Assembly (NCBI GenBank): GCA_008080745.1
Contig: SHMX01000001.1
Span: 210,001 to 242,000, forward strand
DNA from: Candidatus Thorarchaeota archaeon
GTDB lineage: Archaea; Asgardarchaeota; Thorarchaeia; Thorarchaeales; Thorarchaeaceae
Length of the DNA stretch: 32,000 nucleotides
Reading direction: 5' to 3'
Shown here: positions 11,001 through 24,064 of the stretch, in pieces
Layout of the letters: each line of letters begins with the position of its first letter
Position numbering within the stretch: position 1 is the first letter of the stretch
The notes under the pieces: generated by a model
Told to the model about the DNA's origin: nothing
What the model saw: the letters and a program-made list of their open reading frames with translations, nothing else
The model's database searches: none
Program-made: the position numbers and the translations under genes

Positions 11001-12779
11001 TCAGACCTCAACAAGATTCAAAGTTACCACAAATTTTGCACCAAGATTAGGATTATCCTCCACTCGATTTTGGACCGAAATATTACCACCGTATTTTCTA
11101 ATCATCGAAGCTACAAGTGTAAGTCCAACTCCACCATAACGTCGACTCTTATCGAAAACAGACTGTTTCTTTGCATCACTTATTCCAGGCCCGTTATCCT
11201 CGATAATGAGGTCCACCGAATCATCTCTAGAAAAACATGAAATCCATACTTTTTTCTCGTCTTTGGGATTATGTCGTGCTGCATTCTCAAGCAAATTCCA
11301 AATCAATTCTCCAAGAAGGGTGTCAGCCTCTACATAGACGGGCCCATCAGGGAGGTCCAGATCTATTATAGCATTGTATACCCTCTTCAAAACAGCAGCT
11401 TTCTCATGGACCACACTAATCAGGTCAATCTCAGATTCTGGAAGGGCTGATAACTGACTGGCTCGCTTTACCTTTGTAATCAGTCGATTGCATCTTTGGG
11501 CAGCGTCAAGCACATCATTCCTAGCATCATCAATGTAAGATGTTGGAAGTTCGGAATCAAGAAGACCTGCTGAGGTGATGATTATTTGTAACTGATTGGC
11601 AATATCATGAGATAAGAGATCGAGATAAAACTGAACAGTTTCTTCTGCGTTCTTCTGTTTCGTAATGTCTGTAATCACTGCAAAGGTGCCTTGGAATTCA
11701 TTATTTGAGTCAAAGATTGGCATTGCAGAAACAACACTATGGATTACTTCACCCTGTTTACTAAGCCATTGTAATTCGTAGTGTTCAGATATTCCTTTTG
11801 TACGGTCGGTATGTTTTCTCCTTGCATCCGCCTCATTCATCGATAAAGCAAAGTCAGTCCACCTATTACCAACAATCTCATCTTGGTCGTATCCTAACAT
11901 CTCACAGAATGCCTTGTTGGTATAGATAAGAATACCATCTTCATCATCTATGACTAGACCATCATTCATAGTTTCTACAAGCATACGATACCGAGATTCA
12001 GTCTCTCCAAGAGCCTCTAGTTCCTGTTCCTGATGGGTAACATCTAGAAAATGAGCAACTGTTTTTACCGATCCATCACTCAAATGGATGACCTCAACAT
12101 TTACCTCAATCGTCTTTAATTCTCCATTTGGGGTCTCAATCTGTAGGTGATAAGATGAAGGAACATCAATTCCATCCTGTCTTTTCCTGAATATGGGTTC
12201 TAACTTAGCAATTTGTTCAGGTGTAAGAAATTCATCGAAACGATGACCTAGAGTTACTTCAGCCGGTCGCTCCATGACATCAACTGCCCTTTTGTTAACA
12301 TATTCAATTATTCCCTTGTCATCAAGTACCAGAATACCATCGTGTGAATAATCGATTATCACACTTTGGACTTCTCCTAACGATTCAACCGATGAAGTAG
12401 AATCTTGCCAGTCCTTCATTTCAACTACGACATAGAATCGATTAGTATCATTGTCATTTTTTTTGTAATGGATTTTTAGAACTGCAGAACTGGAATCAGT
12501 ATCATTTAGAAGTACAGGTAAATCGATTTCCGAGCCGGATTTTTTTAGTTTCTCAAACTGCTCTATTACAGAAGGATGATAATTTGTGTTAATAACATCC
12601 AATAATGTGAGAGAAGATATATCCTTCTCAGAAATATAATCAAAAATATTTCTAGCATATTGATTCATTTCTATGATTGATAGGTTCTCGTCTAAGAACA
12701 GAATTGCAATCGGAATATCAGCCAATTGAACTAAGGTGTCCTCTGAAGAAGTGATATTTCTCTTCGATTTCTTAGACAT
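11001..12779 (-). CDS. Cytoplasmic sensor histidine kinase with three PAS domains
   Basis: PAS S-boxes (YVNKRAVDVM, YTNKAFCEMLGY); H-box LLSHDIANQL; N-box NLLENAARH; DNGPGI; GGVGL. No TM segments. Confidence 0.92.
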   Translation of the reverse strand: MSKKSKRNITSSEDTLVQLADIPIAILFLDENLSIIEMNQYARNIFDYISEKDISSLTLLDVINTNYHPSVIEQFEKLKKSGSEIDLPVLLNDTDSSSAVLKIHYKKNDNDTNRFYVVVEMKDWQDSTSSVESLGEVQSVIIDYSHDGILVLDDKGIIEYVNKRAVDVMERPAEVTLGHRFDEFLTPEQIAKLEPIFRKRQDGIDVPSSYHLQIETPNGELKTIEVNVEVIHLSDGSVKTVAHFLDVTHQEQELEALGETESRYRMLVETMNDGLVIDDEDGILIYTNKAFCEMLGYDQDEIVGNRWTDFALSMNEADARRKHTDRTKGISEHYELQWLSKQGEVIHSVVSAMPIFDSNNEFQGTFAVITDITKQKNAEETVQFYLDLLSHDIANQLQIIITSAGLLDSELPTSYIDDARNDVLDAAQRCNRLITKVKRASQLSALPESEIDLISVVHEKAAVLKRVYNAIIDLDLPDGPVYVEADTLLGELIWNLLENAARHNPKDEKKVWISCFSRDDSVDLIIEDNGPGISDAKKQSVFDKSRRYGGVGLTLVASMIRKYGGNISVQNRVEDNPNLGAKFVVTLNLVEV

Positions 12780-12887: not shown

Positions 12888-14240
12888 TCAGCTTTTCTCG
12901 ATTTTCCTCCAAAATCGTGTCGCACTTCTCTGACGACCATATCCAATAAGATCATCCATTAATACAATCATTCGGTTCAACCAAGGCATATGTCGAACCA
13001 TCCAAAGAACCATTTTGTGAAGAACGTTGTTTGGTTTGTTGTAAGGGCAGCTACGAATGCAGTTTGAGCATTCACCACCATTTTGTACCCAGAAATCGTA
13101 ACAGCTCTCAACGTCCACATACCATTTCTTTACTCCTGGATTGTTAGATTTTGACGTTCCTTTCCAACTCTGTTCTTTATCATAGGGGATAGACTGTGAA
13201 GGGCAATCTTTTGCGCATCTTTTACAGGTTTTACAAAACCGGATAACAGAATCACAAAAACCCTTGTCGGGTTTATCGGGAATAAGAGGCATATCAGTTA
13301 GAATTTTAGCAAGTCTGACCCTTGGACCATATTCCTTTGTTATAAGTAAACCATGACGGCCGTATTGACCAAGTCCGGCATCAATCGCAAGAGGTACACT
13401 GAGTGCAACATCATTGCCGCAGGCAATTGCATGATATCCCATTCTTCTAATCAAAGAGGATAATTGAATCTCAACAAATGCCATCTTGGAATATCCTATA
13501 GAAGAGGCTGCCTGAGCAGCAAAAGCAGGTGATGCAGCAAGACCATCATAATCCATCTCGATAGCAATCACTATGGCCCGATTGAGTGTTTCTGGTACAT
13601 CATATGGTTCACCTTTTCTATCGACAGAATAAATCCACTTACGATCTAGAGGTGCAATTCCAACCAGAGACCCACCAAAGAGTTTTCCCGCCCTTTTGAT
13701 CAATTGGGTTAACTCGGAAGGATTCTCCAATTTTTTCTCATGTTTGCCTTCAAATCTCAAGATATCTGCTTCATGAACCAATCTACGAGAGTCGTACAAT
13801 GTCCAATTAGCCTGCGTGATTTCATGTTCCCATTGTGTGTACCCTGATATTCCCCTTGAAATCATATCCATTGCACCAGAATACACCGAATTGCCATAAT
13901 TATCAAAATTCGAGTCATTGTATACTCTGGTAAATATCATATCAGATTCAGGAAACTGTGATAGATTTTCAGATACTTCATAGGGATGAATTGATAATTC
14001 CGAATCGTGTTCAGAGCTGGCAGATGTCTTCTTTGTGGATATTTTTGATGCCGTAATAGCTCCCTTAGTACAAGCCCGTAGACAACTAAGACATTCCGTA
14101 CATCTCCCCAAATTATACGTGAGAGCGTGTGCGCCCTGGGTATAGATCAAGGGCGCATTCTCACCATGAATTCGTTGACAAGCCACTACACAGGCTTGAT
14201 TACATTTACGAGGGTCACAGAGGTCTTTATCGATTATCAC
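12888..14240 (-). CDS. Reductive dehalogenase (RdhA/QueG superfamily) with additional N-terminal ferredoxin-like domain
   Basis: SVPLAIDAGLGQYGRHGLLITKEYGPRVRL (corrinoid region), FCKTCKRCAKDCP and C...CSNCIRSCP. N-terminal CDPRKCNQACVVAC and CTECLSCLRAC. No twin-arginine signal. Confidence 0.85.
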   Translation of the reverse strand: MIIDKDLCDPRKCNQACVVACQRIHGENAPLIYTQGAHALTYNLGRCTECLSCLRACTKGAITASKISTKKTSASSEHDSELSIHPYEVSENLSQFPESDMIFTRVYNDSNFDNYGNSVYSGAMDMISRGISGYTQWEHEITQANWTLYDSRRLVHEADILRFEGKHEKKLENPSELTQLIKRAGKLFGGSLVGIAPLDRKWIYSVDRKGEPYDVPETLNRAIVIAIEMDYDGLAASPAFAAQAASSIGYSKMAFVEIQLSSLIRRMGYHAIACGNDVALSVPLAIDAGLGQYGRHGLLITKEYGPRVRLAKILTDMPLIPDKPDKGFCDSVIRFCKTCKRCAKDCPSQSIPYDKEQSWKGTSKSNNPGVKKWYVDVESCYDFWVQNGGECSNCIRSCPYNKPNNVLHKMVLWMVRHMPWLNRMIVLMDDLIGYGRQRSATRFWRKIEKS

Positions 14241-14419: not shown

Positions 14420-15508
14420 CTACTCTTTTTTAATATCATGAATTGGAAAAACCAACTTCTGCACCAGCCTAACATTATCCTTCACAACTCCCCAAGTTTC
14501 CTCATCATCCTCAAAAGGAGGACTCTGGATAGGTGGAGAATATTCGTTTCCAGAGATTACTGAGAGTACTGTGCCAGCACACCATAAAAAAGCCTCAGGG
14601 TGATATCCACCCCCTGAAACAACACCCAATTTTCCTTCACTCCAGCGATGTGCTGCATTATGGGTCCATTTGCTAGTGTAACGAATAATATCTGTAGTGA
14701 GTATCAGATGGGCCATAGGATCACGATAATGACCATCAAAGCCTGGAAGAAGAAATATGAACTCTGGTTTGAAAGAGTCAACTAAGGGTGGAACCAGAGC
14801 ATCAAAGGCGTATCTATACACGGCGTCTCCAGAATCCATTGGAAACGGAAAATTCACATTATATCCCAGTCCTGCACCAAACCCAATATCTTGAATGTAG
14901 CCATCATGGGGATAGAGCCATTCCGGATCTTCGTGAAATGATATCGTCAGTACCTCGGGGTCTTGATAGAAATACTCCTGAGTTCCATTTCCATGATGAA
15001 CATCCAGGTCAAGAATGAGCACTCTTGAAAAACCATTATCTTTCAATTTGTAGACAGCTGCGGCAATATCATTGAACACACAAAACCCCCCACCCCATTC
15101 ATACTTAGCATGATGAAATCCACCAGTAGGCGAATAGAAATGATCGCAATCTCCAGAGAGTATTGAGTTCACACCAGTAACTGTTGCACCACTAGTAAAT
15201 CTTGCATTCTCGTATATTCCTTGGAACCCAGGTGTGTCTATGTCGATATCGCCCACACCCGTTTTAGAGATTCGTCGTACTTCATCCAGATAATCAGGTG
15301 CATGAATTCGTTCAAGCAATTCCTCTGACAAGGGATGGGGTTTGATAGTAGAAATATTGTCAGCTGAAAGTAGTTGGATTTCTTTTAGGAAGTCACGTAC
15401 CATCTGGAATCTACCCACCCTGACTGGATGACTTTTTCCAAAATCAAAGGTTTCCATCATAGGATCCCAGAGAAAACCAACATTACATTTTCGAGGGGAA
15501 GGACTCAT
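14420..15508 (-). CDS. Histone deacetylase/AcuC-family Zn deacetylase
   Basis: GGFHHA, GFCVFND, LDLDVHHGNG, GFDGHYRDP, GGGY. Start placed at ATG 15508 (MSPSPRK) because the longer ORF overlaps the divergent gene. Confidence 0.92.
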   Translation of the reverse strand: MSPSPRKCNVGFLWDPMMETFDFGKSHPVRVGRFQMVRDFLKEIQLLSADNISTIKPHPLSEELLERIHAPDYLDEVRRISKTGVGDIDIDTPGFQGIYENARFTSGATVTGVNSILSGDCDHFYSPTGGFHHAKYEWGGGFCVFNDIAAAVYKLKDNGFSRVLILDLDVHHGNGTQEYFYQDPEVLTISFHEDPEWLYPHDGYIQDIGFGAGLGYNVNFPFPMDSGDAVYRYAFDALVPPLVDSFKPEFIFLLPGFDGHYRDPMAHLILTTDIIRYTSKWTHNAAHRWSEGKLGVVSGGGYHPEAFLWCAGTVLSVISGNEYSPPIQSPPFEDDEETWGVVKDNVRLVQKLVFPIHDIKKE

Positions 15509-15559
15509 TAGATGGTCATTTGCTACTGCATACTTATTAGGTTTCACAATAAGAATTCG

Positions 15560-17020
15560 GTGGTGCAAGATTTAGTGAAAATTCGCTCAATCGCAAGAGT
15601 GCCAACTCCTTCAGAAATATACTCAGTATATGTAAGACAACGGAAGGATGCAAGTGCTCAAATCTTTTCTTTAGATTATGGGGACAGACTTAGAGTATTT
15701 GATGCTAAGGGAACTCTAAGATCCACAATGAAGTGGAGTAGCAAAGTAAGATGCATCGCTGTTGCAGATGTCGAAGGAGAAGGCGATGACGCTCTGGTAG
15801 GCGGTGTTGGCAAGTATGTCCTTGTTGTGGACCAAAAAGGAAAGCAACTATGGAAAATTGTACTTGAAAGTCCGGTTATTGCTTGCGATGCAAGAGATGT
15901 TGATGGAGACGATGCAGCAGAAGTAGTTGTAGCACTCCAAAATAAGCGGGTAATCTTGTGGAATAATGATCAAGATGCGTTATTTACTCGTTCGATGGAT
16001 TCAACTATCGTGGATGTATGGTTAGAAGATATCACAAATGATACTGAACTAGAAGTCGTCACAGCGATGAGGAATGGCAATGTAACAATTGTCAGCTCAG
16101 CAGGTTATCTTCTCAAAGAAATTAGTCTAGGAGAAGAGATTACAACTTTTGCAGTATTAACATTTGGAGAAAGAAAACTCTTCGTAACAAGTAATCTCTC
16201 TAATACCCTACGGTTCTGGGACATTGAAGGTGACTTGGTGGATAAACTAGATATTGGTGGAAGACCAAGATCAATGGCAACAGGGGTGCCAGATGATATA
16301 TCCGATATCGCATATTTGGTAGTAAGTACCGATGAGAAGAAGATTAGTTTTTGGGAGGTTCAACGGTCTGGAAAGGCAAGTCGAACCGAACAGGTTGTTC
16401 TGCAACAAATTGGTTCAACAAAGGACACGGTATATCGACGTTCCATAAAGTGTGGAAATTGTGGTGCACCAGCATCTCCTGAGAGTCCGGTTTGCGATTC
16501 GTGTGGTGCTCAGCTTGAAATGATGGAAGAATATGTAATTGAGGAATACATCCAAGAGAGTATTGAATCAATCACAGCAAAACACCCTCGGATCAAGCTC
16601 AAAGATCTTGACCGTATTCTCAGAAGAACACTCCCACGTCCCGCAGCTTACAATCTGAGAAGAAGTCTTCAGACGATGATTCAGAGTGGTGAGATTGAGG
16701 GACACATTGACGGCAATGTGTTTGTTCGAACTGAGAAGCCAAAAATCGCAAGGTCTGACAGGCCTACGGAGAAATCGGTTAAAGAAACACGACAGATTCT
16801 GCAAGATTTGCTCGACAGAAAAGATTCCTTTGATATTGATCAGATTGAGAAGGAAACAGGAGTGGATCGAAAGATACTCAGACGAACACTACTGATTCTA
16901 TTAGGAGATGGAGTGATCGAAGGTTCCCTCACGGGACAAATCTTCACTCTTGATGATAAAAAGAAAGCAGAGGAGTTTATCCTTCGCTTTGATAGCGAAT
17001 TGAGAAATTGGATGCGATAG
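15560..17020 (+). CDS. FG-GAP/WD-like beta-propeller + Zn ribbon + two PCI-like winged-helix domains
   Basis: Repeats ADVEGEGDD, RDVDGDDAAE, EDITNDTELE; CGNCG...CDSCG; C-terminal IKLKDL...MIQSGEIEGHID and FDIDQI...LLGDGVIEGSL. Likely start GTG 15560/15563. No signal peptide. Confidence 0.75.
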   Translation: MVQDLVKIRSIARVPTPSEIYSVYVRQRKDASAQIFSLDYGDRLRVFDAKGTLRSTMKWSSKVRCIAVADVEGEGDDALVGGVGKYVLVVDQKGKQLWKIVLESPVIACDARDVDGDDAAEVVVALQNKRVILWNNDQDALFTRSMDSTIVDVWLEDITNDTELEVVTAMRNGNVTIVSSAGYLLKEISLGEEITTFAVLTFGERKLFVTSNLSNTLRFWDIEGDLVDKLDIGGRPRSMATGVPDDISDIAYLVVSTDEKKISFWEVQRSGKASRTEQVVLQQIGSTKDTVYRRSIKCGNCGAPASPESPVCDSCGAQLEMMEEYVIEEYIQESIESITAKHPRIKLKDLDRILRRTLPRPAAYNLRRSLQTMIQSGEIEGHIDGNVFVRTEKPKIARSDRPTEKSVKETRQILQDLLDRKDSFDIDQIEKETGVDRKILRRTLLILLGDGVIEGSLTGQIFTLDDKKKAEEFILRFDSELRNWMR

Positions 17021-17080: not shown

Positions 17081-19915
17081 ATGGACATTAGCAAGAGAAT
17101 AATCATTATCTTCGTTAGTGTGTCGCTGATTCCGATATTGTGTATATCGGCCCTTTCAGCATATAGCATCTTTAATGTATCAAATGAAAATGCAGGAGAT
17201 TCTGCTAATGCCCTCAGAAGTGAGGAGTTAGCAAATCTAGACAGATTATCAGATGATACTGCGCTCTTTATTGAAGAGAGGATGCAGAACTATATTGACG
17301 GAGTATTGATGATGGAGAAATATTGTGAGGATTTATTCAATAATAGATTGAATGCCTCACCCCAACATTCGTATTGGTGGGATTATGAAGAAGAGTTTGC
17401 TGAAACAGGTGAACTAGTGCCAAGTAGGCATTTTGAAGCAGATTATGATTCAAGTGACATCTCATTTGAAGTAAGCTGTTATTATATGCCCCGGGAGCAC
17501 TACGATACCCCCGGAGACCCGTTCGATCGAACAGCAGAAACTAATTATTTCATTGATATGTCGAGTAATATGGACAATGTTTTCAGGTCACTCCATGAGA
17601 TGAGTTCTGATTATATCTGGTTATACATGGGATTCAATCCAGATATCTGTGACAGCCATCTGTTTCGAAACTATCCATATGATAATCTCGAATACTTTTG
17701 GGATTACTATAACAATGGCAATGACTACGACCCAGTATTAGAGGACTGGTATTCGAATGCAGTAGATGCCACAGATGGGGAAGTAGCATTTACCAGCCCA
17801 TACGGAGATCCTTCAACTGGACTGGTAATATCAATGGGACGTCCAGTTCATTTTGATAATGGCACTCTTATTGGAGTGGTTTCAGCTGATGTTACACTTG
17901 ACACAATTCTTGCGAGTGTAGTTGACATCGAAGTCCTAGATACGGGATATGCATATCTCCTCAACTCCGATGGAAGTCCCCTCGCACATCCAGACATAAC
18001 AGATGAAGAACAGACTATCTACGAATTAGAGTTTGGTAGCTCAACGTCTTCTGAAGCTATAGCATTCGCAAATATCCTTGCAGATGCAGAGACACAGAGT
18101 ACTGGTCAGGTTGAGTTCACTAAGAATGGAGAACCTTGGATTCTTACATACAATCGAATTCCAAATACAGGATTCCTGCTTGCAATCGTGGTCCCCGTTT
18201 CAGAAGTGGTAGCACCGGCAAATGCAATTCTTGGACTTGTACTAGGACAAACTACAAACCTTACAATAATCCTTGGAGGAATTTTAGCAGTTGTAGCAGG
18301 TTGTGTCGCGTATGTGTCCTACAGACGAGCAAATTCGGTAGTTGAACCCATCGAGGAGATGACATCTCTTGTACAGAAAATGTCACGTCAAGATTTTACC
18401 AGAGGTATAACTGCTAAGGGAGCAATGTTTGAAGAAGTAGGAACAACCGTAGATGCATTGCTAAGTTTCCAAGAAGCATGCAGATTTGGTAATCAAGCCT
18501 TTGTCAGGGGTGATCTCAACAGAGCTCTGGCTAACTATCAGAATCTCTTGGAGATTAGCAGAAGATTGGATATCCCAGTTGGAGAACAGACCATGTGTTT
18601 GAATATTGGAAATGTCTTCCGTCAACGTGGAGATACTGGTAACGCAATCGAATACTATGAAAGAGCATTAGATATAGCAAAGGAACTTCTTGAGAAGGCT
18701 AAGATGGATGGTGCTGATGAGAGAGATGCAATGGTTCGCATTGGTTCCGTCTACCACAACCTCGCACTAGTCGAGATGGATAGAGGGAATTTCACCGAAG
18801 CACTCCAATATCTTCAGGATGCTGAAGCCATTGATCGAAGTCTCAGTAATGACAGGGGCCTAGCAAAACGATTTGATGCTATGGGTCTAGTCATGATGCG
18901 TCAACAACGTCACAGTCAAGCCCAATCAAAGTTCGATGAAGCTGAAAAGATGGCTAAACGTTCTGGATACGATAGGAGTCTGGCATACATCAACTTTCAT
19001 AGAGGAGAACTAAATGTGGACCAAGGCTTCTACGAGAAGGCTGAAGAATCCTTCAAGGCAGCAATAGACTATGGCAAAAGAGTAGAAGAATACGGTTTAG
19101 TTGTTCATGCACTCAGAGAGTTGGCTGATGTGATGGATAGACTAGGAAAACCAAGTCATGAGCTTCGTAGAGAGGCTGAGAGAATTCGAAGGTCCATGCA
19201 GTTCAAGAAGAGTGTCATCTTTGTGATCGATTACTCTGGAAGCATGCAGGCCCAAGGAAGGATAAAAGCAGCTATCACAGGTGCCAAAGAAATACTTGAC
19301 AGTCAGGTCAATCCCCAAGATGAGGTCAGTATCATTGTATTCAACAATACATACAGAGAAGTGCTACCATTAACCAAGAAAGGGGAATATCAAGACCCCG
19401 ATGACAGCCCAATAGTCAAAGCACTCGATTCCTTGAGATATCCAAACTACGCGACTGCATTTTATGACGCGTTGGGTAAGGCTCTACAAGAACTTGACAA
19501 GGTCGAGTCTAGTGAGCACCGTTGGATTATTGCCTTAACGGACGGACAGGACAACAGTTCAAAGATATTCTCACTTGATGCCCTAGAGGGAATCACTGAA
19601 AAGGATCGTTACAAGAAGAACCGACCTCTAACAATTGAGGGATACATTCGAGATAATCATCTAGATGTGAATCTCATCATCATTGGGGTTGGCGGTGAGC
19701 TGAAGTCTTATGTTGACAAGGAGATTGCTGGATCTAAAAGTGGTCGAATGACCTTTGAAGAGTTACTCATGTCAGTATGTGATAATATCCCACAGGGACA
19801 ATATCTCTCAGTAACAGATTCAATAGATGTACATTTGGATATACAGAAAGCATTCCAACAGGTTGGAGTCCTTATGGCACAACTGGAAGTTGGAGGGAGT
19901 ACTACAGACTACTAG
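17081..19915 (+). CDS. Two-TM receptor: dCache_1 - HAMP - TPR array - VWA (intact MIDAS)
   Basis: TM1 near the N-terminus; YDPxxxxWY...PYxD...GVVSAD dCache motif; TM2; EPIEEMT HAMP; TPRs (NIGNVFRQRGDTGNAIEYYERAL etc.); VWA FVIDYSGSM...TAFYDAL...LTDGQDN. Confidence 0.88.
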   Translation: MDISKRIIIIFVSVSLIPILCISALSAYSIFNVSNENAGDSANALRSEELANLDRLSDDTALFIEERMQNYIDGVLMMEKYCEDLFNNRLNASPQHSYWWDYEEEFAETGELVPSRHFEADYDSSDISFEVSCYYMPREHYDTPGDPFDRTAETNYFIDMSSNMDNVFRSLHEMSSDYIWLYMGFNPDICDSHLFRNYPYDNLEYFWDYYNNGNDYDPVLEDWYSNAVDATDGEVAFTSPYGDPSTGLVISMGRPVHFDNGTLIGVVSADVTLDTILASVVDIEVLDTGYAYLLNSDGSPLAHPDITDEEQTIYELEFGSSTSSEAIAFANILADAETQSTGQVEFTKNGEPWILTYNRIPNTGFLLAIVVPVSEVVAPANAILGLVLGQTTNLTIILGGILAVVAGCVAYVSYRRANSVVEPIEEMTSLVQKMSRQDFTRGITAKGAMFEEVGTTVDALLSFQEACRFGNQAFVRGDLNRALANYQNLLEISRRLDIPVGEQTMCLNIGNVFRQRGDTGNAIEYYERALDIAKELLEKAKMDGADERDAMVRIGSVYHNLALVEMDRGNFTEALQYLQDAEAIDRSLSNDRGLAKRFDAMGLVMMRQQRHSQAQSKFDEAEKMAKRSGYDRSLAYINFHRGELNVDQGFYEKAEESFKAAIDYGKRVEEYGLVVHALRELADVMDRLGKPSHELRREAERIRRSMQFKKSVIFVIDYSGSMQAQGRIKAAITGAKEILDSQVNPQDEVSIIVFNNTYREVLPLTKKGEYQDPDDSPIVKALDSLRYPNYATAFYDALGKALQELDKVESSEHRWIIALTDGQDNSSKIFSLDALEGITEKDRYKKNRPLTIEGYIRDNHLDVNLIIIGVGGELKSYVDKEIAGSKSGRMTFEELLMSVCDNIPQGQYLSVTDSIDVHLDIQKAFQQVGVLMAQLEVGGSTTDY

Positions 19916-19928
19916 GAGGTTGAAAAGA

Positions 19929-21383
19929 ATGGCACAAGGAATAGAAACCAAGAAGAAAGGAAGTTTTCAGAAGAATGTAATCATTACATTTCTGACGATA
20001 TCAATAATATCCCTTGCTGCAACTGGTGCAATCTCATTGGGCTTTGTCAACCTCATGGGAGACTATACTACAGTTGAGAGCACGGACGCGTTGGAGTCAC
20101 AGATCGAAACTAACATGGCGCTTACTGCACAGCAGAACGCACTTGTAATAAATCAAAAACTATCTAGCGCCGAGTCAATGGTTCTATCTATGGCTGAAGA
20201 ATGTGAGAGAATATTCTCTCCTGACTCAACATTTGAGCATAGAACAACATACTATGACTACTTCTTTGAGAATACAGAGGACGGTCCACATCCGAGTGAT
20301 GTTGCATTTGATCCTCGCTATGGTCTTAATGTATCTTGGACCTACAGTAGTTGGTATGTAGCTGGTTCAAACTCTACCAATTATGCAACCTATGAAACGC
20401 AGAATCAGGAACGCCTTGGACTGGTCTCCAACATGGACTATACATTCCAATCAATTCACAATCAGATGCCTGAATTTAGATGGCTTTACATTACCTTTGC
20501 AGATAATGGAATGTTCATCAACTATCCAGGTAGTGATTTGGGCGGCTCGGATCTTGCTCGAAACACAGAACCCTGGTATCCTACATTAGATGACTGGTAC
20601 ATCGAAATCGAGAATGGAGAGGGTGACATGGTTTTTGTCGACCCATATTACGATCCGATTGATCAGGTTCTGCTGATATCTATTGGGAAAGCCATCTACT
20701 TTGAAAATGGCACTCTCATCGGAATTATAGCAGGAGACATTACTATTGAGAGCATCAACGATAAAATCTTGGATGTAACCATTCTTGAAACAGGATATGC
20801 TTCATTGATTCTTCAGGATGGTTCAGTCATCGCTCATCCAGATTTGAGTCCCGAGGACTATGAATATGGATTGGTTCCTCTCTATCAGGTAGAAACAAAC
20901 ACTGATGCATCGAGGGCACTCTCACCAGATCAGATGGCCCAAATTACCTCGGGCCAGACAGGAATTCTTCGATACACCAAAGATGGAGAAGAGTATCTTC
21001 TTGCGTATACCTCAGTTGGCAAAGCAGGCTATATCTGTACAATATCGGTACCAGTCAGTGAAGTACTCGATGCTATTCCTGCTTTAGAGAACAGAATCGC
21101 TGAGGCTAATGTGGCAGTATCGACATTTATTATTGCCATAACAGTGGGAGGTATAATACTTGCAGGGGGTGCAGCAGTCGTAGTAGCCAGGCAAATAACA
21201 GGCCCTCTACAGTATCTGATGGACCTAGCAATGAAGAATGTCTCTGCGATGATCCAAGAAGCTCCTACCGACACCCTCGACCTTCAGGTGGATACCGAAT
21301 ACACTGGAAAGGACGATGAGATAGGAGAATTAGCCAGAGCGTTTCAAGGCATGCTGGATACTATTCGAGAAGACGAAATGTAG
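19929..21383 (+). CDS. Two-TM dCache_1 - HAMP protein with no output domain
   Basis: GGAGGT RBS before ATG 19929; TM1; WYPxxxxWY...PYYD...GIIAGD; TM2; ITGPL...DEIGELARAFQGM, then a stop 9 residues later. Confidence 0.88.
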   Translation: MAQGIETKKKGSFQKNVIITFLTISIISLAATGAISLGFVNLMGDYTTVESTDALESQIETNMALTAQQNALVINQKLSSAESMVLSMAEECERIFSPDSTFEHRTTYYDYFFENTEDGPHPSDVAFDPRYGLNVSWTYSSWYVAGSNSTNYATYETQNQERLGLVSNMDYTFQSIHNQMPEFRWLYITFADNGMFINYPGSDLGGSDLARNTEPWYPTLDDWYIEIENGEGDMVFVDPYYDPIDQVLLISIGKAIYFENGTLIGIIAGDITIESINDKILDVTILETGYASLILQDGSVIAHPDLSPEDYEYGLVPLYQVETNTDASRALSPDQMAQITSGQTGILRYTKDGEEYLLAYTSVGKAGYICTISVPVSEVLDAIPALENRIAEANVAVSTFIIAITVGGIILAGGAAVVVARQITGPLQYLMDLAMKNVSAMIQEAPTDTLDLQVDTEYTGKDDEIGELARAFQGMLDTIREDEM

Positions 21384-21395
21384 TGTAAAGGATGA

Positions 21396-23240
21396 GTGGA
21401 TGAGATGAGTACAGATCAATGGACAATCGAACGTTCAAAACTTGTCTATGGATTGGATCGCAATGATCTGCATTTCCTAGATATCGATGATGAAGGAAAT
21501 TTGCTCCTTCGCATTGGAGACCATACTATCTCTTTCAAAGAAATTACGGATCTAGTTAGAGAACAGAACGGTTCTTCCACTGGTTATACTTCGTCATTCA
21601 CTCTCCGTATGCCTCAACTGATTACATATCAGATGATGAAACTCAAAGCATCCTTTGCCCGTGCTATGAAGGAGGCTGATTATCAGGGCGAATTTAGTGC
21701 AGTCTACCCTGTGAAGGTAAATCAAAGGTATGATTGTGTTATGCCAGTACTTGCCTCAGATTCAAATTATGGGCTTGAGGCTGGTACTAAGGCAGAATTA
21801 TTCTTAATCAAGTCGGTGACCGAGAAAGAGAAACATCGGCTTATTATTTGCAATGGCGCAAAGGATCCCGAGTATCTGAAGAGTATTCAACAATGTGTAG
21901 AAGAGGGTTACAATCTCACTGTTTCAATTGAGTCATTCCACGAAGCAGAAATGATAGTAGAATTATTGGATCCTGAAAAATCCGCCATAGTTCTCAGAAT
22001 CAAGCCATATTTGATGGTGAGAGGGCATTGGTCACATTCAGCTGGGCGCGACTCCAAATTCGGACTTAGCATACATGACCTCTATGATGTGATTGAATTG
22101 TTGAAAGAGAAGGGTTTCACAAAATCAGTTACAACAATTCTAGGTCATGTTGGTTCACAGATTACAGCAATGGATGATTTTCATAAATTTGCCAAGTTCA
22201 TGGTACGAGTCTATCACGAAGTTCGAAAATTGGGTCTAACAGAAGTAAGAACTATAGATTTTGGTGGAGGTCTACCGATAGACTATACCAGTTCACATCC
22301 GCCAGACCTCATGAATCAATATGCTGATGCTTTAGTAGCTGGTATACTGGACGGAATTGAAGAAATGGGAGGGGAAATGAAACATCCCAACATACTCACC
22401 GAATCCGGTCGCGGAATAACAGCTTTAGGCTCAGCAGTAGTAGTGAAGATATTAGAGGTTCGCTCAGTATTTCCATCACCCTATCAAGAGATCAGTGAAA
22501 AACGTGATAATGAACGAGATGAATGCATTGCAAATATGAGAAAGGCTACATCAGTGGCCGAACTACTAGAATTATGGAGCGAATTTCATGCATTACACGG
22601 AACTTCCAATGGTTCTATGAGAGACCTTTTTGAAAATGAACTTCTGATTGGTGATGTACGAAGCGAACTCAGGAGACAGCTAGCCAGAATTGCTACTCCT
22701 GGCATTCGTCCAGAGAAGCTTGTAGAGAGCATCTGGCATCCAGATCACCTAGCAATCGGGAATTTTAGTGTCTTTAATGCTGCCTGTGACTATGTGCTTG
22801 TTAATCAGCACTTCCCCATAGTTCCAATTCAAGATCTACATGTCAGACCAGAAACCACTGTCAGACTCGTAGATATCACCTGTGATTCAGATGGTGAATT
22901 ATCACAATTTCATCGTAAAGGTGCAGGAGAAATTTGGTGGTCGAGAGACTATCGACCCTTGACCATGAGAACAGATGATATGGGACAGGGAATACCAGTA
23001 GGATATCTGAAGAATATCCAAGGCTCATATTTTGTAATCGGACTTACCGGTGCCTACCAGGATGTTATCGAGGCCGATCACAATCTACTGGGAGACTTGC
23101 CAGATGTGGAGATTGTAGTGACTGAAGAAGGAGACTGGAAGATTACTTGGACAGCTGGAGCTCAAAAGATGGAGGATCTGCTAGCAGATGCCGGATACGA
23201 AGGTTTTGATATTGACGAAGACCCCTATATGGCAGATTAA
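21396..23240 (+). CDS. speA: Biosynthetic PLP-dependent arginine decarboxylase (bacterial SpeA type)
   Basis: YPVKVNQ (PLP Lys), GLEAGTKAEL, CNGAKD, HVGSQI, DFGGGL, ESGR, DITCDSDG, GAYQD. Confidence 0.88.
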   Translation: MDEMSTDQWTIERSKLVYGLDRNDLHFLDIDDEGNLLLRIGDHTISFKEITDLVREQNGSSTGYTSSFTLRMPQLITYQMMKLKASFARAMKEADYQGEFSAVYPVKVNQRYDCVMPVLASDSNYGLEAGTKAELFLIKSVTEKEKHRLIICNGAKDPEYLKSIQQCVEEGYNLTVSIESFHEAEMIVELLDPEKSAIVLRIKPYLMVRGHWSHSAGRDSKFGLSIHDLYDVIELLKEKGFTKSVTTILGHVGSQITAMDDFHKFAKFMVRVYHEVRKLGLTEVRTIDFGGGLPIDYTSSHPPDLMNQYADALVAGILDGIEEMGGEMKHPNILTESGRGITALGSAVVVKILEVRSVFPSPYQEISEKRDNERDECIANMRKATSVAELLELWSEFHALHGTSNGSMRDLFENELLIGDVRSELRRQLARIATPGIRPEKLVESIWHPDHLAIGNFSVFNAACDYVLVNQHFPIVPIQDLHVRPETTVRLVDITCDSDGELSQFHRKGAGEIWWSRDYRPLTMRTDDMGQGIPVGYLKNIQGSYFVIGLTGAYQDVIEADHNLLGDLPDVEIVVTEEGDWKITWTAGAQKMEDLLADAGYEGFDIDEDPYMAD

Positions 23241-23275: not shown

Positions 23276-24064
23276 ATGAGTGAAGATAAGTTTGCAAAGG
23301 TTAGAGAGCTGTTAAGGGGAAAGAGAGTACTTGTAGCATTCAGTGGTGGAGTAGATAGTACAGTCTTAGCAAAGATTGCGGAACAGGAGTCCAAAGAGGT
23401 TTTACTTCTCAATGTAATAATGCCTACCGCACCAAGTTTTGAGGCACAAAGAACAGAAAGCATAGCTGAAGAAATAGGGGCACCTCTTGAAATTGTAACA
23501 TTTGATTGGTTAGGTCATGACAAACTAGTTGCCAATGATGAAAAGAGATGTTACTTATGCAAATTAGAAATTGGCAAGCTCTGGTTAGAGGTTGCAAAAA
23601 AGAGAGAAATGGATCTGGTAATTGAAGGCACCACCGCAACAGAGATCGAAGGACATAGACCGGGAGCTCAAGCCCTTCGAGAGCTTGAGATATTATCCCC
23701 GTTTCTTGAAGCAGGTATAACAAAGGAGGAGATACGAGATTTTGCAAGACAGCACAATCTCTCAATTGCAGAACTACCATCAATGGCATGCCTAGCGTCA
23801 AGATTTCCAACAAATACACAAATTACTGCTGAGAAACTTAGAATGGTAGACAATCTTGAGAATGCAGTACGTAAGCTATTTGATGTAGAATGTGTTCGAG
23901 TAAGATATCATGAAGGTCTAGCTAGAATCGAGGTAGGAAAGGAAGAAAGGAATAAGCTATTTGGTGTACAAAAATTGGATGAGATTCACAAAATTGGAGT
24001 AGCTATCGGATTCAAGTACATAACGTTTGATGTTCGAGGTTATCAAACAGGTTCAACTAGTTAG
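23276..24064 (+). CDS. larE: LarE-like PP-loop ATP-dependent sulfur transferase (TIGR00268 type)
   Basis: AFSGGVDS PP-loop, RCYLCK, RPGAQA, PSMACLASRFP, RVRYH, ARIEV. Confidence 0.88.
   Translation: MSEDKFAKVRELLRGKRVLVAFSGGVDSTVLAKIAEQESKEVLLLNVIMPTAPSFEAQRTESIAEEIGAPLEIVTFDWLGHDKLVANDEKRCYLCKLEIGKLWLEVAKKREMDLVIEGTTATEIEGHRPGAQALRELEILSPFLEAGITKEEIRDFARQHNLSIAELPSMACLASRFPTNTQITAEKLRMVDNLENAVRKLFDVECVRVRYHEGLARIEVGKEERNKLFGVQKLDEIHKIGVAIGFKYITFDVRGYQTGSTS

What the first reader, a model, noticed from the sequence alone, without database searches (positions are those of the whole stretch)
17726..23240. Charge-reversed dCache pockets next to arginine decarboxylase suggest agmatine/polyamine sensing
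Established: the dCache_1 amino-acid motif YxxxxRxWY...Y...D (PctA Y121, R126, W128, Y144, D173) uses Arg for the ligand carboxylate and Tyr/Asp for the amino group. Seen: receptor A reads YDPVLEDWY (17726-17752) and receptor B reads WYPTLDDWY (20574-20600). Both keep W, the downstream Y and the distal D (29-30 residues later), but have Glu or Asp at the Arg position. The next gene is speA, which removes the carboxylate from arginine to give agmatine. Inference: the cluster makes and senses a decarboxylated di-cationic amine, possibly as an extracellular signal.
Basis: partly seen in the sequence, partly recalled or inferred. Interest (0 to 1): 0.72.

Follow-up and report, generated by a model that had tools for sequence, protein, structure and literature searches.

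The report
Acid-pocket receptor pair beside arginine decarboxylase
Two neighbouring membrane sensors of an Asgard (Thor) archaeon carry an amino-acid-sensor pocket in which the arginine that grips the ligand's carboxylate is replaced by an acidic residue. Across Asgard genomes this change goes with an adjacent arginine decarboxylase gene, so the sensors probably detect agmatine or a related amine.

Summary
Both motifs sit at the stated coordinates. HMMER aligns them without gaps to PctA YDPRSRPWY, so Glu221 of receptor A and Asp221 of receptor B occupy the Arg126 position. The amino-group residues Y144, D146 and D173 are kept.

The receptors are a conserved pair found widely in Asgard archaea. 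A is dCache_1-TPR-VWA. B is dCache_1-HAMP with no output domain.

I surveyed 64 loci:
- **speA adjacent (34 loci):** none has Arg or Lys at this position. B has E/D in 33 and Q in 1. A has E/D in 25 of 32.
- **speA not adjacent (13 loci):** B has R/K in 7, as part of the full amino-acid motif. Four loci have an acidic B without speA.

Three different gene orders keep speA next to the pair. The position is the single most discriminating column of the sensor domain.

In this family SpeA replaces the usual archaeal PdaD. TiaS is present and no agmatinase was found, so agmatine is probably an end product.

The ligand is untested, and the independent evolutionary transitions may number only one to three. 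The "extracellular signal" idea has no direct support. Verdict: a new variant of the known amine-sensing dCache theme, and a sharply testable prediction.

The parts
15560..17020 (+). Cytoplasmic beta-propeller (FG-GAP/BBS2-like), Zn-ribbon and winged-helix protein. It is the first gene of the co-directional block and a frequent companion of the receptor pair across Asgard.
   Evidence: Pfam Beta-prop_CGLA, BBS2_Mid and Zn_ribbon hits. A propeller gene lies next to the A/B pair in f1, f18, f26, f9, f27, f25 and Hodarchaeales loci.
17081..19915 (+). Receptor A. Layout: TM, extracellular dCache_1, TM, HAMP-like linker, TPR repeats, VWA domain with an intact MIDAS site (DxSxS...T...D).
   Evidence: Pfam dCache_1, TPR_12 and VWA_2. 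MIDAS residues are invariant in 22 homologues. Model pLDDT is 87.3.
17726..17752 (+). Receptor A pocket motif YDPVLEDWY. Glu221 sits at the PctA Arg126 position.
   Evidence: Gap-free HMMER alignment to PctA. Among 42 homologues the position is E in 36, Q in 5 and L in 1.
19929..21383 (+). Receptor B. Layout: TM, extracellular dCache_1, TM, HAMP. The protein ends after HAMP, so it has no output domain.
   Evidence: Pfam dCache_1 and HAMP. All homologues are about 480-500 aa. Model pLDDT is 85.6.
20574..20600 (+). Receptor B pocket motif WYPTLDDWY. Asp221 sits at the PctA Arg126 position.
   Evidence: HMMER alignment to Mlp24 and PctA. Among 45 homologues the position is E in 30, D in 14 and N in 1. 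Y240, D242 and D270 are invariant.
21396..23240 (+). SpeA-type (PLP, fold type III) arginine decarboxylase. It starts 12 bases after B.
   Evidence: NCBIfam PRK05354 346.7 bits over its full length. PDB 3NZP, 3NZQ and 3N2O are the only strong hits. Catalytic motifs are intact.
14420..15568 (-). Class II HDAC-like deacetylase, divergently oriented. It is conserved beside the block in family f1 only, so it may or may not belong to the system.
   Evidence: Pfam Hist_deacetyl 253.8 bits. Closest solved structures are HDAC6 and HDAH. In G005 it lies directly beside speA and the receptor block is absent.

Best explanation
**What it is.** The two genes encode the two subunits of an Asgard-wide membrane receptor. 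B is the better-conserved ligand-binding subunit and has no output. A carries the cytoplasmic HAMP-like, TPR and VWA(MIDAS) output.

[quoted passage not shown] The close relatives that are not linked to speA still carry the full Y-R-W-Y-D motif.

**The change.** In the receptor pairs that sit next to a SpeA-type arginine decarboxylase, the Arg that clamps the ligand's carboxylate has been replaced. The replacement is Glu or Asp, rarely Gln, and in A occasionally Tyr or Ser. The triad that holds the ligand's primary amino group (Y144, D146, D173) is kept.

**Likely ligand (inferred).** The pocket should therefore reject a carboxylate and favour a second positive group. The most likely ligand is agmatine, the SpeA product, or a related short di- or polyamine.

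**Likely role (inferred).** The receptor adjusts agmatine production to external or periplasmic amine supply, as feedback or supply sensing. In this family SpeA is probably the only source of agmatine, and agmatine is needed at least for the TiaS tRNA-Ile2 modification.

**Shown versus inferred.** Shown: homology, residue equivalence, conservation, synteny and its correlation with the residue, and the gene content of the genome. Inferred: the ligand, A/B pairing, the direction of regulation, and the output path.
For: 1. **Residue equivalence and fold.** Established by HMMER alignments and structure matches.
2. **Conservation.** The position is E/D in 44 of 45 B and 36 of 42 A homologues, and the amine triad is invariant in B.
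3. **Ancestry.** Among the 150 nearest cluster representatives, 112 domains keep Arg126 with the whole AA motif, so the acidic state is derived.
4. **Context.**
   - In 34 speA-adjacent loci no domain has R/K. B is E/D in 33 and Q in 1. A is E/D in 25, Q in 4, Y in 2 and S in 1.
   - In 13 loci without adjacent speA, B is R/K in 7.
5. **Gene order.** Three gene orders keep speA beside the pair: A-B-speA, speA-A-B, and divergent speA next to A-B.
6. **Discriminating column.** The Arg126 column is the most discriminating of the sensor-domain columns compared between speA-linked and unlinked receptors (overlap 0). Next come the PctA A147-equivalent (Pro versus Ala) and two further positions that are acidic only in the linked set.
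7. **Two substitutions.** The A/B duplication predates the split, since R-type loci have both A and B. The substitution therefore happened separately in both paralogues.
8. **Precedent.** McpU and TlpQ dCache_1 domains bind agmatine and polyamines at nM-uM affinity. They use the same Y/D/D amine triad plus an extra Glu in a strongly negative pocket (PMC6234866). dCache_1AM amine sensors evolved from dCache_1AA (PMC10589655).
9. **Genome content.** No PdaD, arginase/agmatinase or agmatine deiminase was found, and TiaS is present. PdaD is 0 of 25 in family f1 against 12 of 16 in other Asgard families.
Against: - No binding data exist and no coordinates were available to inspect the pocket, so side-chain orientation is inferred from homology.
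- Family f9 has an acidic B pocket (FKDDWY with Y, D, D) but no SpeA in the genome. Acidity does not require speA.
- Some speA-linked A subunits have Q, Y or S at the position, or have lost Y144. A may not bind the same ligand, or any ligand.
- The association may rest on very few events. Holding all speA-linked rows as one clade is not rejected for A (p-AU 0.50). For B it is rejected only post hoc (p-AU 0.023). The independent-pairs test has no power.
- R-type genomes lack SpeA altogether. The contrast is therefore partly presence or absence of a co-inherited block.
- Four f1 genomes have a more divergent SpeA without the receptors.
- TlpQ and McpU are not among the closest structural neighbours.
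Confidence: 0.55

Rival explanations
1. **Substrate sensing.** The pocket binds L-arginine or another basic amino acid in a non-canonical pose. The guanidinium or side-chain amine would lie between Glu/Asp221 and the aromatic residues. The receptor would then induce SpeA when its substrate is available.
For: - The closest solved relatives are amino-acid binders, several crystallised with arginine (Mlp24, Mlp37 and PctB).
- Substrate induction of a decarboxylase is common logic.
- The amine triad is retained.
Against: - In all dCache_1AA structures the alpha-carboxylate is held by R126, and R126A lowers affinity 61-fold (PMC8915833).
- An acidic residue at that spot should repel a carboxylate.
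- The change is systematic in both paralogues.
Confidence: 0.12
2. **Proton or metal-cation sensing.** The acidic pocket titrates with pH or binds a divalent cation. SpeA would act as a proton-consuming or stress-response enzyme, as in the Cad and Adi acid-stress modules of bacteria.
For: - The linked receptors carry extra acidic residues at positions 221, 222 and 114/105.
- Membrane sensors next to amino-acid decarboxylases are the pattern of CadC-CadBA (established knowledge).
- dCache_1 domains that bind inorganic ions are reported (cited in PMC10589655).
Against: - SpeA is the biosynthetic type, not the inducible acid-stress type.
- No amino acid/amine antiporter is in the cluster or window.
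- SpeA replaces the housekeeping PdaD in this family.
- The small-molecule amine triad is strictly conserved in B.
Confidence: 0.12
3. **No ligand link.** The receptors and speA are neighbours only through shared descent of a block. The acidic residue would be a lineage marker with no bearing on SpeA chemistry, and the ligand would be unrelated.
For: - The number of independent transitions may be as low as one.
- f9 has acidic B without SpeA, and some f1 genomes have SpeA without receptors.
- A downstream LarE gene is also syntenic within f1 with no obvious functional tie.
Against: - Adjacency survives three different gene orders and sequence divergence down to about 30% identity, while the flanking genes change.
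- The Arg126 column is the top discriminator of the sensor-domain columns compared.
- Both paralogues changed.
Confidence: 0.1

Closest known systems
dCache_1AA universal amino-acid sensor (PctA, Mlp24, Mlp37, Tlp3, alpha2delta; Gumerov et al. 2022, PMC8915833)
   Same: - The fold matches (Z about 21, rmsd 2.1-2.4 A).
- The motif register is the same.
- Y121-type aromatic, W128, Y129, Y144, D146 and D173 are retained.
- The nearest non-speA-linked homologues of both A and B carry the complete motif.
   Different: - The defining carboxylate-binding Arg126 is Glu or Asp.
- The sensor domain is about 90 residues longer, with an insert between the first helix and the distal module.
- The outputs are TPR-VWA or none, rather than MCP, kinase or cyclase.
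McpU/TlpQ polyamine, agmatine and histamine chemoreceptors (PDB 6F9G, 6FU4; PMC6234866)
   Same: - Both are dCache_1 domains.
- The primary amine is held by the Tyr/Asp/Asp triad equivalent to Y144, D146 and D173.
- An additional Glu makes the pocket strongly negative.
- Agmatine is a high-affinity ligand (0.15-0.48 uM).
- The ligand-binding domain is unusually large.
   Different: - In TlpQ the extra Glu170 comes from a loop inserted between strands 1 and 2, not from the Arg126 position.
- TlpQ and McpU are structurally nearest to the M. mazei 3LIB class and are not among the top 50 neighbours of the model here (Table S1 of PMC6234866).
- They are chemotaxis receptors and are not linked to speA.
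dCache_1AM amine-recognising domain (PctD, PacA, McpX, M. mazei 3LIB; Cerna-Vargas et al. 2023, PMC10589655)
   Same: - It shares the evolutionary logic: an amine sensor derived from dCache_1AA by loss of the carboxylate-binding residues.
- The W128/Y129 pair and D173 are retained.
- It is also found in archaea.
   Different: - The AM motif relies on an aromatic sandwich (PctD W155/F188) for cation-pi binding, plus a small insertion.
- Its Arg126 position is not conserved (Gln in PacA).
- Its tested members did not respond to putrescine or agmatine in the ligand screens.
- It was reported in only one archaeal phylum, Halobacteriota.
- Here the nearest relatives are AA-type, which implies an independent origin.
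CadC-CadBA and Adi-type sensor-decarboxylase modules of bacteria (established knowledge)
   Same: A membrane sensor is encoded beside an amino-acid decarboxylase. In Cad the product amine, cadaverine, is sensed by the periplasmic domain as feedback.
   Different: - The sensor fold is unrelated (ToxR-like CadC).
- The decarboxylases are inducible and paired with antiporters for acid stress.
- Here the enzyme is the biosynthetic SpeA type and no antiporter is present.

Membership tests
Pfam dCache_1 (PF02743) | Match to the family profile above the gathering score, and the double-PAS-like fold | tested here: met
   A scores 70.5 bits and B 72.7 bits against a cut-off of 45. The models match dCache_1 structures at Z about 21.
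dCache_1AA (amino-acid sensor) | Arg at PctA position 126, contacting the ligand carboxylate | tested here: not met
   The position is Glu221 in A and Asp221 in B. It is never Arg or Lys in 66 speA-linked domains.
dCache_1AA (amino-acid sensor) | Y121, W128, Y144 and D173 equivalents | tested here: met
   A has Y216, W223, Y241 and D270. B has W216, W223, Y240 and D270.
dCache_1AM (amine sensor, PMC10589655) | AM_motif: aromatic sandwich (PctD W155 and F188), R103 and D133 above the pocket, hydrophobic M215, D235, and a small pocket insertion | tested here: inconclusive
   - The F188/Y189 and D235 equivalents are present (W223, Y224, D270).
- The other positions could not be mapped, because the motif figure is not held and no residue-level structural alignment was available.
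- 3LIB and PctD are weaker neighbours than the AA-type domains.
McpU/TlpQ polyamine-binding dCache_1 | Tyr/Asp/Asp triad for the primary amine, plus an additional acidic residue that makes the pocket negative | tested here: met
   The triad is Y241/D243/D270 in A and Y240/D242/D270 in B, plus E/D221. The residues are compared with TlpQ Y208, D210, D239, E170 and W192 from PMC6234866 and PMC7584622.
McpU/TlpQ polyamine-binding dCache_1 | Close sequence or structural relationship, including the 20-22 residue loop between strands 1 and 2 that carries the extra Glu | tested here: inconclusive
   Neither 6FU4 nor 6F9G appears in the sequence hits at E<1 or in the 50 best structural rows. The insert here lies before strand 1.
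SpeA biosynthetic arginine decarboxylase (NCBIfam PRK05354 / TIGR01273) | Full-length match above the curated cut-off | tested here: not met
   It scores 346.7 bits against cut-off 369 on PRK05354, and 334.9 against 624.1 on TIGR01273. The match is full length (residues 4-605) and these are the best-scoring families by far.
SpeA biosynthetic arginine decarboxylase (NCBIfam PRK05354 / TIGR01273) | PLP lysine and the conserved active-site motifs | tested here: met
   YPVKVNQ, HVGSQ, GGGLP, ESGR and CDSDG align to C. jejuni SpeA 3NZP. Substrate specificity itself is not testable here.
VWA domain with MIDAS | DxSxS...T...D metal-ion-dependent adhesion site | tested here: met
   D717-x-S-x-S, T792 and D821 of A are invariant in 22 homologues. 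These are alignment positions D28, S30, S32, T103 and D132.

The most novel reading that the evidence does not exclude
Agmatine made by SpeA is released and read back by the A/B receptor as a self-produced extracellular cue. That would be a quorum- or autocrine-type amine signal in Asgard archaea. It would be received by a two-subunit receptor in which an output-less ligand-binding subunit drives a TPR-VWA partner, which is eukaryote-like receptor logic on an alpha2delta-like dCache scaffold.
Probability: 0.08. Interest if true: 0.88.

Novelty: new variant of a known kind. Interest (0 to 1): 0.62.

Why it matters
Ligands of almost all archaeal receptors are unknown, and Asgard signalling is nearly unexplored.

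- **A specific prediction.** A single-residue charge reversal in the best-understood sensor motif, together with a conserved metabolic neighbour, gives a cheap and falsifiable ligand prediction: agmatine or short polyamines.
- **A natural contrast.** Arg-type and acid-type versions of the same receptor pair exist within one protein family, so specificity can be compared directly.
- **A second route to amine sensing.** It would be a second, independent evolutionary route from amino-acid sensing to amine sensing.
- **A new receptor family.** It defines a widespread Asgard family (dCache-TPR-VWA, dCache-HAMP, and a beta-propeller) whose output mechanism is unknown.
- **A metabolic link.** It ties the receptor to agmatine supply, which every archaeon needs for tRNA-Ile2 decoding.

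Tried and rejected
- **Complex prediction.** Complex prediction of the A VWA domain with the beta-propeller of the upstream gene gave no answer (score 0.00, controls not run). This is neither for nor against binding.
- **RNA evidence.** No RNA holder was listed. Only two marine-sediment DNA runs hold the stretch, and they are probably its source.
- **Pocket compensation idea.** I considered that a conserved Arg/Lys in the 'GRP/GK' strand (A R254) might compensate for the lost Arg126. By hairpin register it should lie far from D270, and in B it does not co-vary. I dropped this without a structural test.
- **SpeA tail docking idea.** I considered that the conserved acidic SpeA C-terminal tail (DEDPYM) docks on the TPR domain of A. 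A similar tail occurs in SpeA copies without the receptors, so I did not pursue it.
- **Agmatine receptor PacG.** PacG (PMC13215616) is a four-helix bundle, not dCache, and is therefore irrelevant.
- **TlpQ/McpU residue mapping.** Neither appeared among the sequence hits or the top 50 structural rows. Their residue at the Arg126-equivalent position could not be retrieved, because the supplementary alignment is an image.
- **Statistics.** The independent-pairs sign test gave only one informative pair on supported branches.
- **Short contigs.** Three context look-ups could not be scored: P0262 and P0281 (L037), and the downstream side of P0280 (L043).

Full report
**What is there**

The window comes from a Thorarchaeota (Asgard) metagenome-assembled genome. 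Database names of near-identical proteins say so.

Between 15560 and 24064 lie five co-directional genes separated by 12-60 bases:
- a cytoplasmic beta-propeller/Zn-ribbon/winged-helix protein;
- receptor A (17081-19915);
- receptor B (conserved start 19929, end 21383);
- a SpeA-type decarboxylase (21396-23240);
- a LarE-type PP-loop protein.

A has the layout TM, dCache_1, TM, HAMP-like segment, TPR, VWA, with an intact and invariant MIDAS site. B has TM, dCache_1, TM, HAMP and then stops. All of its roughly 200 homologues are about 480-500 aa, so the missing output is real. These are the only two dCache_1 domains in the 3.16-Mb, 98%-complete genome.

The two nonapeptides are at the stated coordinates. 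HMMER aligns them without gaps to PctA YDPRSRPWY and Mlp24 WDPRVRPWY.

A Glu221 and B Asp221 therefore occupy the Arg126 position. W128, Y129, Y144, D146 and D173 are all present.

AlphaFold models built on 45 and 42 homologues are confident (pLDDT 85.6 and 87.3). The B model superposes on amino-acid-bound dCache_1 domains at Z 20-21 and rmsd 2.1-2.4 A over about 238 residues. Eukaryotic alpha2delta is tied at the top (Z 22.4, 288 residues aligned).

Among homologues the position is E or D in 44 of 45 B sequences. In A it is E in 36 of 42, Q in 5 and L in 1. It is never basic. Position 127 is variable and should face away from the pocket.

**The wider family gives the key contrast**

A profile of the sensor domains found 117 cluster representatives at E<=1e-30. 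They fall into an A-like size class (about 870-950 aa) and a B-like size class (about 450-520 aa). Aligned to the profile, 112 of the nearest domains keep Arg126 within a complete YDPRxRxWY...Y.D...D motif, and 37 are acidic.

I determined genomic context by 12 contig look-ups and by fetching 38 further loci from Asgard genomes. Of the 64 loci in the final table, context could not be determined for 17 because the contigs were short.

| Context | Loci | B at position 126 | A at position 126 |
|---|---|---|---|
| SpeA gene adjacent | 34 | E/D 33, Q 1, R/K 0 | E/D 25, Q 4, Y 2, S 1, R/K 0 |
| No SpeA gene adjacent | 13 | R/K 7, E/D 4, other 2 | R/K 6, E/D 3, other 1 |

The genomes with Arg-type pairs that I checked have no SpeA orthologue at all.

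Adjacency is kept in three gene orders:
- (propeller-)A-B-speA in f1, f20, f14, Hodarchaeales and others;
- speA-A-B in L036;
- speA divergent from A-B in f18 and one f5 genome.

Receptor identity falls to about 30% and flanking genes differ across these loci.

I compared every aligned column of the sensor domain between linked and unlinked receptors. The Arg126 column separates them completely and ranks first. Next come the PctA A147-equivalent, which is a pocket residue according to PMC7584622 (Pro versus Ala), and two positions that are acidic only in the linked set.

**How independent is the association?**

A and B split at the root of the tree and show mirrored topologies, so the pair co-evolves. 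Because the duplication predates the Arg/acid split, the substitution occurred separately in each paralogue.

Arg-type loci (L035/L042 and L031) nest among acid-type clades. I tested the constraint that holds all speA-linked rows together as one clade, apart from the Arg-type rows. For B it is rejected (p-AU 0.023), but the group was named after seeing the tree. For A it is not rejected (p-AU 0.50).

The independent-pairs test has only one informative pair. The number of independent transitions is therefore somewhere between one and three. The correlation is striking but not statistically established.

**Exceptions**

- Family f9 has an acidic B pocket (FKDDWY, Y, D, D) beside a degenerate A pocket. 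Its genomes have no SpeA and use PdaD.
- Family f12 has Q in B and W or F in A. Its context could not be determined.
- Four f1 genomes carry a more divergent SpeA without the receptors.
- One genome, G002, has only a decayed remnant of B next to speA.
- B keeps the full amine triad in 33 of 34 linked loci, whereas A keeps it in 25 of 32. B therefore looks like the primary ligand-binding subunit.

**Metabolic setting**

The genome has no pyruvoyl arginine decarboxylase, no arginase/agmatinase family protein and no agmatine deiminase. It has only weak spermidine-synthase-like matches. It does encode TiaS, which needs agmatine to modify tRNA-Ile2 (the TiaS requirement is established knowledge).

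PdaD was found in 0 of 25 genomes of this family but in 12 of 16 genomes of other Asgard families. SpeA was found in 22 of 24 relatives of the family. SpeA therefore looks like the housekeeping agmatine source, and agmatine may be an end product. That favours supply or feedback control over a dedicated signalling role.

**Mechanism proposed**

An amine lacking a carboxylate binds the distal module of B, and in most lineages also of A. Agmatine is the first candidate, then C3-C5 diamines.
- Its primary amine would sit on Y240/D242/D270.
- Its second cationic group would sit on Glu/Asp221, flanked by W223 and the Y121-type aromatic residue.
- Swapping Arg for the shorter Glu or Asp should leave room for a second cationic group where the ligand's carboxylate sat in PctA. 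I had no coordinates, so no distances were measured and this is a geometric expectation only.

The signal would pass through TM2 and the HAMP segments to the TPR-VWA module of A. The partners of that module are unknown. They may include the conserved propeller protein, but the one complex prediction gave no answer.

The precedent is direct. McpU and TlpQ bind agmatine at 0.15-0.48 uM, using the same triad plus an extra Glu in a negative pocket (PMC6234866). dCache_1AM shows that amine sensors arise from dCache_1AA (PMC10589655).

**Comparison and novelty**

- The domains fail the defining Arg of dCache_1AA.
- They meet the functional hallmarks of the TlpQ/McpU pocket but are not close relatives of it.
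- They could not be scored fully against the AM_motif.
- Their nearest kin are AA-type, so this looks like an independent conversion to amine sensing.

I found no paper describing this receptor family or its link to SpeA in the searched library. I rate it a new variant of a known kind: a well-founded, testable ligand prediction, not a demonstrated function.

Noticed in passing
window 17081-21383 and loci L031-L081: The A (dCache-TPR-VWA) and B (dCache-HAMP, no output) pair, usually with a beta-propeller gene, is a widespread Asgard module. It was found in 119 of 400 genomes across at least 10 GTDB families. A and B have mirrored trees. B's pocket is better conserved than A's, which suggests a ligand-binding subunit paired with a signalling subunit.
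   Followed up: partly
L048, L056, L059 (family f12): This is a third pocket type: B has Gln and A has Trp or Phe at the Arg126 position. B is also 585-670 aa, with an extra C-terminal extension. speA context is unknown because the contigs are short.
   Followed up: no
L073-L077 (family f9): The B pocket is acidic (FKDDWY with Y, D, D), but A has a degenerate triad (N, S, E). The propeller gene is large, at 622 aa. No SpeA is present in these genomes, which carry PdaD instead.
   Followed up: partly
model m32b5b75e8c15 (B), residues 96-182: The sensor domain is about 90 residues longer than bacterial dCache_1AA domains. The best and longest structural match is eukaryotic alpha2delta-1 (Z 22.4, 288 residues). 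Some family members give weak Pfam VWA_N hits (L033 A, L036 B). This dCache plus VWA combination in Asgard may bear on the origin of alpha2delta/CACHD1, although here the VWA domain is cytoplasmic.
   Followed up: no
whole genome G000 and relatives: SpeA-type arginine decarboxylase appears to have replaced the archaeal pyruvoyl enzyme PdaD in this Thor family. PdaD is 0 of 25 in the family against 12 of 16 in other Asgard families. No agmatinase/arginase or agmatine deiminase was found, and TiaS is present on contig C12.
   Followed up: partly
window 14420-15568 (-): This class II HDAC-like deacetylase is closest to HDAC6 and bacterial HDAH. It is divergent from the block in family f1. In G005 the receptor block is missing and this gene lies directly beside speA. 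A role in deacetylating polyamines is possible but untested.
   Followed up: partly
window 23205-23240 (SpeA C-terminus): A conserved acidic tail ending in D-P-Y-M/F occurs in SpeA orthologues of the family. It lies beyond the region that aligns to the C. jejuni SpeA structure. It is also present in some copies that lack the receptors.
   Followed up: partly
G002:C7:15034-15339: Only a remnant of receptor B (the TM2-HAMP part, with TAG and TAA stops) remains next to speA, and no sensor domain was found in that genome. This looks like a cassette in decay.
   Followed up: no
L043 (JGI 3300017613 contig): In this Arg-type locus the sensor domains of A and B are each other's closest relatives. That points to a separate recent duplication or to gene conversion.
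   Followed up: no
window 23276-24064 (+): The gene after speA is a LarE-type ATP-dependent sacrificial sulfur transferase (237.8 bits against cut-off 150). It is syntenic in many f1 genomes, with no evident link to polyamines.
   Followed up: no
window 12888-14240 (-) and 11001-12779 (-): A reductive-dehalogenase-family protein (TIGR02486, 217.5 bits) carries an N-terminal RLI-like Fe-S domain. A PAS histidine-kinase-like protein lies next to it. Both are syntenic beside the HDAC-like gene in several f1 genomes.
   Followed up: no
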